Shown: piece by piece, positions 6,796 to 8,270 of the stretch
Layout: each line of letters opens with the position of its first letter
Numbering within the stretch: the stretch's first letter is position 1
Source: a virus
Taxonomy: Duplodnaviria; Heunggongvirae; Uroviricota; Caudoviricetes
DNA length: 11,546 nt
IMG/VR virus record: IMGVR_UViG_2713896901_000004
Span: 1-11,546 of that record
Direction: 5' to 3' (one strand)
Notes under the pieces: generated by a model
Told to the model about the DNA's origin: nothing
The model's database searches: none
Seen by the model: the letters and a program-made list of their open reading frames with translations, nothing else
Made by a program: the position numbers and the translations under genes

Positions 6796-6964
6796 TTTTG
6801 GTTCAACTAAATACAACGTCAGTTTTGAAGAATGGCATGAACTGTTAATGGATTATGCAGAGTTACGTGGTGGAAGTGCTGCTGATGCTGAAGCCTGGCG
6901 TGATGACTACGAAGCAGGAAAAACACCTGTCGAAGCATATTGTGATGAGTGGGGCGATGAATGA
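6788..6964 (+). CDS. Small, strongly acidic hypothetical protein (58 aa), below the ORF-track cutoff
   Basis: ATG 6788 preceded by GAGGAGGAA. Translation MADFGSTKYNVSFEEWHELLMDYAELRGGSAADAEAWRDDYEAGKTPVEAYCDEWGDE. Its stop overlaps the next gene's start as ATGA (6961-6964), and its start overlaps the end of the previous acidic ORF. Confidence 0.5.
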   Translation: MADFGSTKYNVSFEEWHELLMDYAELRGGSAADAEAWRDDYEAGKTPVEAYCDEWGDE

Positions 6965-7476
6965 GCGAGATTAATTATCAGGAAGGGCATGAAACGGCAG
7001 GGCAGGCAAAACCAGTTGCATGGCGATATCGCTACGTGAAAAAAGGCGTTACGGACTTTCAGGAGAATCTGTGGGTTGGTGACTGGAAATATGTACCGAC
7101 AAAAGAGGATTGCAACGACAGGCCGAACTATGAAATTCAGGCCTTATTCGCTGCCCCGCCAGTTCCGGTGACATCAGAAGGACTGGTTAAAGCCGTGCGC
7201 TTTTATGAACAGGTAAAGCGTGAGAATCCACCAGTCGAAACAGGAGTATGGAAAGATGCTGTTGATTGGGTTCTCAAAGAGGCCTGCTGTGCTGTCATTC
7301 TGGGTAAAGCCGACAATCCATTAGCATCCAGTAACCAAGTTGGCGAATTAACAATGTGGGTTAAACGACTGGTCAGTCAACTGAAAAAAGCTAATCCAGA
7401 CTGCAAATTACCGGAGAAGGCGATGGACTACCTGAAGCGGAACGAACTGATAAGCGCGGAGGATGTTTTGCGATGA
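6961..7476 (+). CDS. Hypothetical prophage protein (171 aa)
   Basis: Track ORF, translationally coupled to the upstream small ORF. No family recognised. Confidence 0.55.
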   Translation: MSEINYQEGHETAGQAKPVAWRYRYVKKGVTDFQENLWVGDWKYVPTKEDCNDRPNYEIQALFAAPPVPVTSEGLVKAVRFYEQVKRENPPVETGVWKDAVDWVLKEACCAVILGKADNPLASSNQVGELTMWVKRLVSQLKKANPDCKLPEKAMDYLKRNELISAEDVLR

Positions 7477-7556
7477 CCTGGCCTGAAGCATTCACAACGG
7501 TAGGAATTGCAATAGCGGTGGCGCTGGTGGTGTATTCGATTTGCCACTGGATGTGA
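7473..7556 (+). CDS. Possible 27-aa single-pass membrane peptide
   Basis: ATG 7473 overlaps the stop of the 171-aa gene (ATGA). Translation MTWPEAFTTVGIAIAVALVVYSICHWM is mostly one hydrophobic helix. Not in the ORF track; very short, so low confidence. Confidence 0.3.
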   Translation: MTWPEAFTTVGIAIAVALVVYSICHWM

Positions 7557-7717
7557 GGTATTAAAAAACGCCCCGCACACAGACGTTGAGCGCCTGAGAT
7601 GTGGGGATAGGGAGTTAGTTAAATAGTTATACAACAATACCTGATTTTATATTGAAGCAAGAAATAGGTTGCTACATATTGAACCATGCGCGTGTACGTC
7701 AAATATGGGAGGTCATC

Positions 7718-7807
7718 GTGCTGGTTCTGAAATGTGCGCTGGCTATTGCGGCAGTAATGGCAATTTATTGTCTTGTTATCGTTCTTATGAATCACCTCTC
7801 TGATTGA
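7718..7807 (+). CDS. Possible 29-aa hydrophobic peptide with GTG start and strong SD
   Basis: GGGAGG (7707-7712), 5-nt spacer, GTG 7718. Translation (M)LVLKCALAIAAVMAIYCLVIVLMNHLSD. A candidate promoter TTGAAG-17-CATATT lies at about 7652-7680. Sits just upstream of the hok locus. Not in the ORF track. Confidence 0.3.
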   Translation: MLVLKCALAIAAVMAIYCLVIVLMNHLSD

Positions 7808-7814
7808 TTTTATA

Positions 7815-7843
7815 TTGGCGAGGTGACGTGAGTTAAGTAGAAT
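7815..7843 (+). promoter_or_regulatory. Candidate promoter of the hok/mok mRNA
   Basis: TTGGCG (7815-7820), 17-nt spacer, TAGAAT (7838-7843). The predicted start near 7850 precedes GGGTGCTTGAGGCTATCTGCCTC, which resembles the 5' end of plasmid R1 hok mRNA (recall). Confidence 0.45.
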
Positions 7844-7961
7844 TGCTGCGGGTGCTTGAGGCTATCTGCCTCGGGCATGAACACCAACGGCAGATAGAGA
7901 AAAGCCCCAGTTAACATTACGCGTCCTGCAAGACGTTTAACATTAATCTGAGGCCCAATCT

Positions 7962-8174
7962 ATGCTTCACAAACGTAGGTTAGCCTCTTACGTGCCGAAA
8001 GGCAAGGAGAAGCAGGCTATGAAGCAGCAAAAGGCGATGTTAATCGCCCTGATCGTCATCTGTTTAACCGTCATAGTGACGGCACTGGTAACGAGGAAAG
8101 ACCTCTGCGAGGTACGAATCCGAACCGGCCAGACGGAGGTCGCTGTCTTCACAGCTTACGAACCTGAGGAGTAA
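7962..8174 (+). CDS. mok: Mok-like reading frame: in-frame N-terminal extension of hok (70 aa)
   Basis: Track ORF; ATG 7962 with GAGG 8 nt upstream. It shares frame and stop with hok, as mokC does with hokC in E. coli K-12 (recall). Confidence 0.55.
   Translation: MLHKRRLASYVPKGKEKQAMKQQKAMLIALIVICLTVIVTALVTRKDLCEVRIRTGQTEVAVFTAYEPEE
8019..8174 (+). CDS. hok: Hok/Gef-family type I toxin (51 aa)
   Basis: ATG 8019 with AAGGAGA 8 nt upstream. Translation MKQQKAMLIALIVICLTVIVTALVTRKDLCEVRIRTGQTEVAVFTAYEPEE is a canonical Hok sequence, closest in my memory to HokD/RelF. Confidence 0.85.
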   Translation: MKQQKAMLIALIVICLTVIVTALVTRKDLCEVRIRTGQTEVAVFTAYEPEE

Positions 8175-8242
8175 GAGACCAGGCGGGGGAGAAATCCCTC
8201 GCCACCTCTGATGTGTCAGGCATCCTCAACGCACCCGCACTT

Positions 8243-8270
8243 AACCCGCTTCGGCGGGTTTTTGTTTTTA
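8243..8270 (+). terminator. Rho-independent terminator at the end of the hok mRNA
   Basis: CCCGC-TTCG-GCGGG hairpin (8245-8258) followed by TTTTTGTTTTT. Confidence 0.65.

What the first reader, a model, noticed from the sequence alone, without database searches (positions are those of the whole stretch)
7718..7807. Unannotated 29-aa hydrophobic ORF with strong SD immediately upstream of the hok locus
A GTG-initiated ORF, (M)LVLKCALAIAAVMAIYCLVIVLMNHLSD, has a near-consensus SD (GGGAGG, 5-nt spacer) and a candidate promoter (TTGAAG-17-CATATT, about 7652-7680). It is below the ORF-track cutoff. Its size and hydrophobicity resemble type I toxins and small membrane-active phage peptides, and it sits in the non-coding gap beside a bona fide hok toxin. 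It does not look like Hok, Ldr, Ibs, TisB or ShoB to me, so it may be an undescribed small membrane peptide, or simply noise.
Basis: partly seen in the sequence, partly recalled or inferred. Interest (0 to 1): 0.55.

Follow-up and report, generated by a model that had tools for sequence, protein, structure and literature searches.

The report
Conserved prophage membrane micropeptide beside hok
The 29-codon ORF is a real, selection-maintained gene for a tiny single-helix membrane peptide that lambdoid prophages of E. coli carry immediately upstream of a hok/sok toxin cassette; automatic annotation usually skips it, and its function is unknown.

Summary
GTG 7718 to TGA 7807 is preceded by GGGAGG with a 5-nt spacer and by TTGAAG-17-CATATT, and it ends 8 nt before the hok -35.

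It is not noise:
- All 126 class-A copies in viral contigs keep the GTG and the frame.
- A 34-aa relative has about 48% identical residues but only 62% identical DNA. A 30-aa relative differs by an in-frame codon.
- dN/dS is 0.2-0.4 in frame and about 1, with stops, out of frame.
- Across six diverged upstream haplotypes, the invariant stretches are the -35 TTG, CATATT, GGAG and GTG.
- The 34-aa relative is ECs_5710/XECs145 of O157 Sakai, which had strong ribosome footprints in a published RIBOseq study.

About 35% of complete E. coli genomes carry the 29-aa form, and no sampled RefSeq record annotates it. The family is restricted to Escherichia/Shigella prophages. It matches no Pfam, NCBIfam, PHROG or PADLOC model.

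About 93% of copies lie directly upstream of hokD-type hok/sok, often as a roughly 770-bp cassette. Each gene also occurs without the other, and Hok does not co-vary with the peptide.

I found no conserved antisense RNA. The type I toxin reading is therefore unsupported. A non-toxic accessory membrane peptide is the more likely explanation.

The parts
7718..7807 (+). P2: 29-aa micropeptide gene (GTG start, TGA stop), MLVLKCALAIAAVMAIYCLVIVLMNHLSD. It is predicted to form a single transmembrane helix.
   Evidence: ORF. 126/126 copies are intact, with 17 peptide alleles. dN/dS is 0.17-0.39 for most pairs. Homologues were found. AlphaFold2 predicts one helix over residues 3-33 with pLDDT 92, run on the 34-aa family member with the family alignment.
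7707..7712 (+). Shine-Dalgarno GGGAGG, 5 nt upstream of the GTG
   Evidence: GGAG is invariant in six diverged upstream haplotypes. The 34-aa class has AAGGAGG at the same distance, and L309 has GGAG.
7652..7680 (+). Candidate sigma-70 promoter of P2: -35 TTGAAG (7652-7657), 17-nt spacer, -10 CATATT (7675-7680). The predicted start of transcription is about 7687.
   Evidence: CATATT is invariant, TTG is invariant and the spacing is fixed in six haplotypes, while only 3 of 17 spacer positions are invariant. The -35 is lost in 13/126 copies. The whole promoter is absent in BL21, in L309 and in the 34-aa class.
7642..7654 (+). Left copy of the 13-nt direct repeat TGATTTTATATTG, overlapping the P2 -35
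   Evidence: The right copy lies at 7805-7817.
7805..7817 (+). Right copy of the 13-nt direct repeat. It starts with the P2 stop codon and runs into the hok -35.
   Evidence: The 34-aa class has an analogous repeat (GGTAAAAACG..) on both sides of its P2 unit.
7473..7556 (+). P1: a second micropeptide gene, 27 aa, MTWPEAFTTVGIAIAVALVVYSICHWM. Its ATG overlaps the stop of the 171-aa ORF 6961-7476 (ATGA).
   Evidence: P1 is conserved upstream of P2 or directly upstream of hok in many loci. It is unrelated to P2 by profile comparison.
7557..7600 (-). Hairpin plus T-run that reads as an intrinsic terminator on the minus strand, between P1 and the P2 promoter
   Evidence: Other loci have different hairpin sequences at the same spot, each preceded by an A-rich run. 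The common A2 form has none.
7815..7843 (+). hok promoter (TTGGCG-17-TAGAAT). The P2 stop lies 8 nt upstream of its -35.
   Evidence: The Rfam match begins at 7850.
7850..8024 (+). hok mRNA leader and sok region (Rfam RF01794)
   Evidence: 113 bits, E=1e-26.
7962..8174 (+). mok (70 aa) overlapping hok (8019-8174, 51 aa)
   Evidence: Pfam HOK_GEF E=1e-23. PHROG 251.
8243..8270 (+). hok terminator. In the common A2 form, the corresponding terminator marks the right end of the roughly 770-bp P2+hok/sok cassette.
   Evidence: The right boundary of homology clusters at +540 to +560 from the GTG in 42/71 loci.

Best explanation
Window 7718-7807 is a real protein-coding gene. Its product is a 29-residue peptide that forms one hydrophobic helix and most likely inserts into the inner membrane.

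It belongs to a narrow, uncharacterised family with 29-, 30- and 34-residue forms. The family is confined to lambdoid prophages and phages of Escherichia and Shigella. The gene sits at the end of the replication/nin gene block, directly before a hokD-type hok/sok cassette.

In this window it is translated from a GTG behind a near-consensus SD. It is probably transcribed from its own weak sigma-70 promoter (TTGAAG-17-CATATT) and also by read-through from the early rightward operon. No terminator separates it from hok, so these transcripts should run on into the hok locus.

I infer that the peptide acts as a non-lethal accessory membrane peptide of the moron type. It travels with hok/sok but works independently of it. 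It is not a Sok-type antisense-controlled toxin.

Shown: coding selection, conserved translation and promoter signals, cassette structure, distribution, and translation of the Sakai homologue.

Inferred: membrane insertion, activity of the promoter, read-through into hok, absence of toxicity, and any cellular target.
For: Frame, start codon and alleles:
- GTG and frame are intact in 126/126 class-A copies, with 17 alleles. All 33 class-B copies in hok-anchored loci are intact.
- Variable sites are enriched at third codon positions, 18 of 31.
- dN/dS is 0.17-0.39 in frame for most pairs, against about 1 with stops in other frames.
- Class A and class B share 41-52% of residues at 62% DNA identity.
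- The 30-aa relative differs by an in-frame codon.

Expression signals:
- Every context provides an SD.
- The promoter hexamers are invariant while the spacers diverge.

Structure and translation:
- AlphaFold2 predicts a single helix with pLDDT 92.
- The Sakai homologue ECs_5710 = XECs145 lies at the same position upstream of mok/hok in prophage Sp6. In PMC5597208 Table S2 it has, in LB, translatome RPKM 346, ribosome coverage value 4.35 and coverage 0.99. That paper predicts an inner-membrane protein with one TM helix.

Distribution and linkage:
- 1903 of 5426 complete E. coli genomes carry the class-A ORF.
- 210 of 225 copies have hok directly downstream.
- The cassette spans -220 to +550 and sits in more than 15 unrelated left contexts.

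Independence from hok:
- 11 loci have an intact ORF but no hok.
- About half of the hok-anchored loci lack P2.
- The same Hok allele follows the A, B, C and other upstream classes.
Against: - There is no direct expression data for this 29-aa allele. The RIBOseq evidence is for a 48%-identical homologue, and O157 carries several similar prophages, so reads may be shared among copies.
- The promoter is weak (8/12). It is missing in 13/126 copies and in whole sub-lineages, so it cannot be essential.
- The function is not established. 'Non-toxic accessory peptide' rests on negative evidence (no antisense partner found) and on one ribosome-profiling data set.
- The near-obligate adjacency to hok, and their co-mobilisation as one cassette, would also fit a functional link that I cannot exclude.
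- A minus-strand terminator upstream in this window has no identified transcript.
Confidence: 0.6

Rival explanations
1. It is a type I toxin. Under this reading it is a membrane-damaging peptide whose mRNA is held in check by a small antisense or divergently transcribed RNA, forming a second toxin-antitoxin pair next to hok/sok.
For: - The size and hydrophobic single helix fit.
- It has its own promoter.
- It sits next to a bona fide type I locus.
- A minus-strand intrinsic terminator lies at 7557-7600, just upstream. Related loci have hairpins preceded by A-rich runs at the same place.
- Weak minus-strand promoter-like sites exist at 7836-7807, and in the A2 form at L002 3969-3942.
Against: - No minus-strand promoter or terminator is conserved across the family. 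The commonest form (A2) has no minus-strand terminator. The 34-aa class, L309 and BL21 place the ORF in an operon, with no room for a dedicated antisense unit.
- The longest direct repeat between the upstream block and the mRNA is 13 nt here, and nothing of 10 nt or more exists in A2. By my recollection, IstR-1, OhsC and OrzO pair over 18-21 nt.
- The mRNA fold is not exceptional (z -0.81).
- Rfam finds nothing besides sok.
- The Sakai homologue is among the better-translated small ORFs in growing cultures.
- A consensus SD without visible repression is kept in 35% of E. coli genomes.
Confidence: 0.15
2. It is a functional third component of the hokD-type cassette. Under this reading the membrane peptide modulates Hok, as a protein-level brake or helper for insertion, or tunes hok expression because its transcripts read into the hok promoter and leader.
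For: - 93% of copies have hok immediately downstream at a fixed distance.
- In the A2 form, P2 and hok/sok move as one roughly 770-bp unit bounded by a left hairpin and the hok terminator.
- The P2 stop lies 8 nt from the hok -35, with no terminator between them.
- The P2 unit is bracketed by repeats that include the hok -35 region.
Against: - P2 classes A and B differ at about half of their residues, yet the same Hok allele follows both. There is no co-variation.
- About half of the hok-anchored loci have no P2.
- 11 loci keep an intact P2 although hok has been replaced by unrelated DNA.
- The peptide sequence itself is under selection. That argues against a purely transcriptional role.
Confidence: 0.13
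3. Only the act of translation matters. Under this reading the ORF is a leader or upstream ORF that couples ribosome traffic to downstream transcription or to mRNA stability, and the peptide itself is irrelevant.
For: - The ORF is short and has a strong SD.
- It sits directly before another promoter and leader.
Against: - The amino-acid sequence is conserved across 38% DNA divergence with dN/dS 0.2-0.4.
- Conserved motifs are ALA, YCL and L(M)(D/E)RL.
- There is no terminator or attenuator structure between the ORF and hok.
Confidence: 0.05
4. It is not a gene. Under this reading the ORF is a chance frame inside conserved regulatory DNA upstream of the hok promoter.
For: - It is very short and is skipped by PGAP in every sampled RefSeq genome.
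- Its DNA is carried along with a highly conserved hok cassette.
Against: - Protein-level conservation coexists with diverged DNA, and one relative has an in-frame indel.
- There are no frame-breaking alleles in 126+33 copies.
- The other frames carry stops, and the 58-aa minus-strand ORF is not conserved.
- The homologue gives ribosome footprints.
Confidence: 0.04

Closest known systems
ECs_5710 / XECs145 of E. coli O157:H7 Sakai prophage Sp6 (34 aa, MSDDISLAMEGALAVIAVVGVYCLVVFLMDRLGN). It is one of 465 translated intergenic ORFs in Huecker et al. 2017 (PMC5597208).
   Same: - It belongs to the same family. Class A and class B share 41-52% of residues over the 29 aligned positions, including the ALA, YCL and LMDRL motifs.
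- It occupies the same position directly upstream of the mok/hok promoter.
- It has a strong SD.
- It is predicted to have one TM helix.
   Different: - It has a 5-residue acidic N-terminal extension and Glu where this peptide has Lys5.
- It starts with ATG.
- It has no promoter of its own and follows the 27-aa P1 gene after about 35 nt.
- A 22-bp palindrome lies between its stop and the hok promoter.
- No function has been assigned to it either.
Hok/Gef family type I toxins (hok/sok of plasmid R1, hokD, hokW)
   Same: Both are small single-helix membrane peptides on mobile elements. The nearest neighbour here is a hokD-type locus.
   Different: - There is no sequence similarity.
- It has no overlapping mok-like frame.
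- It gives no Sok-like antisense or leader match in Rfam.
- It has no long folded leader.
- Its homologue is translated in growing cells.
Type I toxins with divergently encoded sRNAs (TisB/IstR-1, ShoB/OhsC, ZorO/OrzO, DinQ/AgrB). Their features are taken from my own knowledge.
   Same: - It encodes a hydrophobic peptide of about 29 residues.
- It has its own promoter.
- In this window a terminator reads away from the gene just upstream.
   Different: - There is no stretch of complementarity to the mRNA.
- The upstream block is not conserved across the family.
- There is no covariation-supported RNA structure.
- It matched no model in the Pfam-A or NCBIfam libraries at E<=10; I did not check which of these toxin families those libraries hold.
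Small regulatory or accessory inner-membrane proteins of E. coli (MgrB, AcrZ, MgtS, KdpF, CydX). This comparison is from my own knowledge.
   Same: - It is similar in size, at 20-50 residues.
- It has one transmembrane helix.
- It is efficiently translated and is overlooked by annotation.
   Different: - It is prophage-borne and restricted to Escherichia/Shigella.
- No partner protein is known.
- It has only weak, sub-threshold similarity to any of those families. The best NCBIfam hit is an ATP-synthase c subunit model at E=0.05.
Phage morons: independently transcribed accessory genes inserted between conserved phage genes
   Same: - It lies in a discrete cassette with sharp ends in more than 15 contexts.
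- It has its own promoter, and the cassette ends in a terminator.
   Different: - The cassette carries two units (P2 and hok/sok).
- In other lineages P2 is an ordinary operon member without a promoter.

Membership tests
Protein-coding small ORF (real gene versus chance frame) | Reading frame and start codon preserved in homologous loci | tested here: met
   126/126 class-A copies keep the GTG and the frame. 33/33 class-B copies are intact. The 30-aa relative has an in-frame indel.
Protein-coding small ORF (real gene versus chance frame) | Purifying selection on the encoded amino acids | tested here: met
   dN/dS is 0.17-0.39 in frame for most pairs (one close pair with 7 differences gives 0.85) and about 1 in shifted frames. 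Variable sites are enriched at third codon positions, 18/31.
Protein-coding small ORF (real gene versus chance frame) | Evidence of translation | tested here: inconclusive
   Ribosome footprints exist for the 34-aa homologue XECs145/ECs_5710 (RCV 4.35, coverage 0.99). There are no data for this 29-aa allele.
Type I toxin-antitoxin system | Small hydrophobic membrane peptide | tested here: met
   The peptide has 29 aa and is predicted to form one helix.
Type I toxin-antitoxin system | Antisense or divergent sRNA gene with its own promoter and terminator, complementary to the toxin mRNA | tested here: not met
   - A minus-strand terminator occurs only in the A1 sub-type and not in A2.
- Minus-strand promoter-like sites are weak and not conserved.
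- The longest shared stretch is 13 nt.
- Rfam finds nothing.
- No covariation was found.
Type I toxin-antitoxin system | Toxin mRNA folded so that translation is blocked until processing | tested here: not met
   The fold of 7687-7850 has z = -0.81, and 39 of 200 shuffles fold as well. The homologue is translated in growing cells.
Type I toxin-antitoxin system | Growth arrest or membrane damage on expression | not testable with these tools
   This needs inducible expression together with viability and membrane-potential assays.
Hok/Gef (PF01848) and the other described E. coli type I toxin families | Match to the family profile | tested here: not met
   There are no Pfam hits and no relevant NCBIfam hit at E<=10. 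The neighbouring Hok scores 1e-23 in the same search.
Single-pass small membrane protein | One uninterrupted hydrophobic helix long enough to span the bilayer | tested here: met
   AlphaFold2 predicts a helix over residues 3-33 with pLDDT 92 on the family alignment. Residues 6-24 are uncharged. PMC5597208 Table S8 predicts inner membrane with one TM helix for the homologue.
Single-pass small membrane protein | Demonstrated membrane localisation | not testable with these tools
   This needs fractionation of a tagged allele.
Phage moron / mobile accessory cassette | Discrete unit with own promoter and terminator, found in unrelated flanking contexts | tested here: met
   The left boundary falls at -200 to -220 in 48/71 loci and the right boundary at +540 to +560 in 42/71 loci. 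There are more than 15 distinct left flanks. The promoter islands are and the hok terminator. This window belongs to the A1 sub-type, whose left flank is P1 plus a hairpin rather than the A2 block.
Holin or lysis-cassette peptide | Location in the lysis module next to an endolysin | tested here: not met
   The gene lies between the replication genes and Q. In the near-identical strain THO-006, the holin and endolysin lie several kb downstream.

The most novel reading that the evidence does not exclude
hokD-type cassettes of lambdoid prophages may really be three-part units: micropeptide, Hok and Sok. In this reading the upstream membrane micropeptide modulates Hok-dependent killing or phage release, either by contacting Hok in the membrane or because its transcription and translation feed into the hok promoter and leader. 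The fixed adjacency and the co-mobilising 770-bp unit allow this. The lack of co-variation with Hok, and the existence of each gene without the other, argue against it.
Probability: 0.13. Interest if true: 0.7.

Novelty: new member of a known kind. Interest (0 to 1): 0.42.

Why it matters
About a third of complete E. coli genomes carry this gene, including BL21, the type strain DSM 30083 and SMS-3-5, yet the standard annotation pipeline omits it. It adds a selection-maintained, probably well-translated membrane micropeptide to the prophage gene set. It also shows that the widely studied hokD-type locus usually comes with a conserved neighbour that past work on hok/sok did not consider. If the peptide affects membrane physiology, Hok action, or phage release or exclusion, it would matter for interpreting prophage TA phenotypes. 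If it does not, it is still a clean, easily tested case for small-protein annotation.

Tried and rejected
Family searches
- Pfam, NCBIfam, PHROGs and PADLOC scans of the peptide gave nothing.
I repeated it with a 51-aa first row.
- The exhaustive profile search found only 27 cluster representatives. All the newly found ones that I read were P2 variants or fusions, apart from one weak repetitive hit.
- The species-representative genome scan found only E. ruysiae, S. flexneri and three tiny MAG contigs.

Antisense and sRNA search
- The Rfam E-value scan found only sok.
- The promoter/terminator scans of the window and of the A2 form gave weak, non-conserved minus-strand sites.
- The repeat search for trans complementarity found at most 13 nt.
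- The 18-nt anti-SD inverted repeat in L002 lies in non-conserved flank and was rejected.

Other tests
- RNAalifold on the conserved block of about 150 nt upstream of the A2 promoter gave a covariation term of +0.95, so there is no support for a structured RNA.
- I tested whether P1 and P2 are paralogues. hhalign gave 2.4% probability, so I rejected that idea.
- I tested whether Hok co-varies with the P2 class. It does not.
- The longer 51-aa frame starting at TTG 7652 was rejected. In the A2 form the GTG is the first start after an in-frame stop.
- The 58-aa minus-strand ORF 7619-7795 is not conserved.

Literature
- The peptide strings are not in any main text.
- The hokW-sokW paper and the Pas sRNA paper do not concern this locus.
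- The Pro-SMP paper is irrelevant.
- The Ribo-RET BL21 tables were not obtainable.
- 'The Cryptic Bacterial Microproteome' has no text mention of hok or prophages.

Full report
**What is in the sequence.** The window is the early-right region of a Qin/Rac-like lambdoid prophage. Going rightwards it holds YdaT, a DnaT-like replication protein, P, DUF1627 and DUF977. A hokD-type mok/hok/sok locus follows, and then DUF968, RusA and Q.

The ORF is exactly as described. It runs from GTG 7718 to TGA 7805-7807. GGGAGG lies at 7707-7712 with a 5-nt spacer. TTGAAG 7652-7657 and CATATT 7675-7680 are 17 nt apart.

The hok promoter (TTGGCG 7815-17-TAGAAT 7843) starts 8 nt after the stop codon. The Rfam sok/hok-leader model matches 7850-8024 at 113 bits.

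**Is it a gene?** I anchored a scan of viral contigs on the hok promoter, outside the ORF. That gave 123 hok loci, which fall into four upstream classes:
- Class A has this 29-aa ORF.
- Class B has a 34-aa ORF, MSDDISLAMEGALAVIAVVGVYCLVVFLMDRLGN.
- Class C has only a different 27-aa ORF, MxWPEAF..., here called P1.
- The remaining class has other sequence.

Class A and class B peptides align over all 29 positions at 41-52% identity, with invariant ALA, V13, YCL and L23. Their DNA is only 62% identical. Intermediates and more diverged members exist. One of them is a 30-aa form that differs by an in-frame codon and also sits upstream of hok.

Scans anchored inside the ORFs gave 126 usable class-A copies. 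All start with GTG; 125 encode 29 aa and one encodes 31 aa, with 17 peptide alleles in total. Variable sites are concentrated at third codon positions, 18 of 31. Nei-Gojobori dN/dS is 0.17-0.39 in frame for most pairs. It is about 1, with stop codons, in the other two frames.

In the commonest form the GTG is the first start after an in-frame stop, so the 29-aa product is the conserved one. The 58-aa minus-strand ORF is not conserved.

**Expression signals.** Six diverged upstream haplotypes share four invariant stretches: T.TTG at the -35, CATATT at the -10, GGAG and GTG. Only 3 of the 17 spacer positions are invariant, and the spacing is fixed. That is the signature of a working promoter and ribosome-binding site.

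The promoter is not universal, however. Thirteen of 126 copies have lost the -35, and BL21 lost the whole promoter through a junction in the 5' UTR. Class B and the 30-aa form sit in an operon without a promoter of their own.

**Experimental support from the literature.** The class-B gene is ECs_5710 in prophage Sp6 of O157:H7 Sakai, directly upstream of the mok/hok gene ECs_1520. An N-terminally extended call of the same ORF is XECs145 in Huecker et al. 2017 (PMC5597208). Its values there are:

| Condition | Transcriptome RPKM | Translatome RPKM | Ribosome coverage value | Coverage |
|---|---|---|---|---|
| LB | 79 | 346 | 4.35 | 0.99 |
| BHI control | 121 | 150 | 1.14 | 0.84 |
| BHI cold/osmotic stress | 73 | 1.1 | 0.01 | 0.37 |

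The paper's thresholds were RPKM >=1, coverage >=0.5 and ribosome coverage value >=0.25. The same paper predicts an inner-membrane protein with one TM helix. No such data exist for the 29-aa allele, and reads could be shared among similar O157 prophages.

**Distribution and annotation.** The class-A ORF occurs in 1903 of 5426 complete E. coli genomes. These include BL21 and the type strain DSM 30083, and SMS-3-5. No sampled RefSeq row annotates it.

In the large protein collections the family appears only as 'hypothetical protein' or 'membrane protein' of E. coli, E. albertii and Shigella. An exhaustive profile search of 1.8 billion representatives found 27 clusters. Among 185,579 species-representative genomes, only E. 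ruysiae, S. flexneri and three tiny MAG contigs matched. Three cultured phages carry it: Tritos, Evi and mEp460_ev081. It matches no Pfam, NCBIfam, PHROG or PADLOC model. AlphaFold2 predicts one continuous helix with pLDDT 92.

**Relation to hok.** Among copies found through the peptide itself, 210 of 225 with enough sequence have hok at a fixed distance downstream. Four of the exceptions have a disrupted hok. The other eleven form one lineage in which hok is replaced by unrelated DNA while the ORF stays intact.

In the commonest form (A2), homology between loci begins at -200 to -220 from the GTG. It starts at a hairpin, GTCCGCT-N10-AGCGGAC, and ends at +540 to +560, at the hok terminator. 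More than 15 unrelated left flanks were seen. This makes a mobile cassette of roughly 770 bp that carries the ORF plus hok/sok.

Two observations argue against a specific partnership. About half of the hok-anchored loci lack the ORF. The same Hok allele follows classes A, B and C and the remaining class, although the peptide classes differ at half their residues.

The ORF unit is bracketed by short direct repeats that include the hok -35 region, both here (13 nt) and in class B. That would explain its easy gain or loss.

**Is it a type I toxin?** I looked for the defining RNA partner and did not find one.
- This window has a good minus-strand intrinsic terminator at 7557-7600. Related loci have other hairpins at the same place. 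The A2 form has no minus-strand terminator at all.
- Minus-strand promoter-like sites are weak and not conserved.
- The longest stretch through which a divergent upstream RNA could pair with the mRNA is 13 nt here, and there is none in A2.
- The conserved A2 upstream block has no covariation-supported fold.
- The predicted mRNA is not unusually structured.

These results, together with the strong translation of the Sakai homologue in growing cultures, make the toxin reading unlikely but not excluded.

**Verdict.** The ORF is a real gene for a single-helix membrane micropeptide. It is a new 29-aa member of a small, uncharacterised prophage family, one of whose members has already been catalogued as translated. 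It usually travels with hok/sok. Its function is unknown. I judge an independent, non-lethal accessory membrane role most likely (0.6), ahead of a type I toxin (0.15) and a hok-linked modulator (0.13).

Noticed in passing
window 7473-7556 (+): A second unannotated micropeptide gene, P1 (27 aa, MTWPEAFTTVGIAIAVALVVYSICHWM). Its ATG overlaps the stop of the 171-aa ORF 6961-7476 (ATGA). It is conserved in many prophages, and in class C loci it lies directly against the hok promoter. In some Shigella records the same residues form part of a 121-aa 'DUF551' protein. It is unrelated to P2.
   Followed up: partly
window 7557-7600 (- strand): A long hairpin followed by a T-run reads as an intrinsic terminator on the minus strand. 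I could not identify a minus-strand transcript that would end there. Other loci have unrelated hairpins at the same spot, each preceded by an A-rich run.
   Followed up: partly
window 7642-7654 and 7805-7817: A perfect 13-nt direct repeat, TGATTTTATATTG, brackets the P2 unit. Each copy runs into a -35 (TTGAAG for P2, TTGGCG for hok), so the P2 promoter looks like a duplicate of the hok promoter's upstream half. Class B has an analogous repeat, and class C looks like the deletion product.
   Followed up: partly
L316 2578-2599 (O157 Sakai Sp6) and all class B loci: A perfect 22-bp palindrome, CGATATGGGAATTCCCATATCG, lies between the P2 stop and the hok promoter. It has no T-run on either side, so it is not an obvious terminator. 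It could be a protein-binding site or an RNA-processing site.
   Followed up: no
L002 3822-3845 and equivalent positions in about 40 loci: The left end of the 770-bp P2+hok cassette is a hairpin, GTCCGCT-N10-AGCGGAC, joined to more than 15 unrelated upstream sequences. The roughly 150 nt between this hairpin and the P2 promoter are conserved. They have no convincing ORF or RNA structure, and their role is unexplained.
   Followed up: partly
L056, L091, L238 (class B loci): The same foreign sequence is inserted exactly at the hok Shine-Dalgarno (GGCAAGGAGA|TGTATGGGTCC...). L262 carries an internal hok deletion. hok is inactivated in these loci while P2 stays intact.
   Followed up: no
L310 2181-2590 (BL21): In BL21 the 29-aa ORF starts inside the 3' end of the annotated DUF977 gene, in another frame, with a 40-nt overlap. 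A recombination junction in the 5' UTR removed the P2 promoter there.
   Followed up: partly
13 of 126 class-A loci (e.g. L133, L146): In these copies the -35 TTGAAT is replaced by CTCATC. This creates a perfect small palindrome, TCTCATCAATGATGAGA, across the former -35 and spacer.
   Followed up: no
window 8183-8264 (+): A weak sub-threshold Rfam match to isrK (24.9 bits; gathering threshold 50) covers the 3' end of the hok transcript and its terminator. It is most likely just the terminator hairpin.
   Followed up: no
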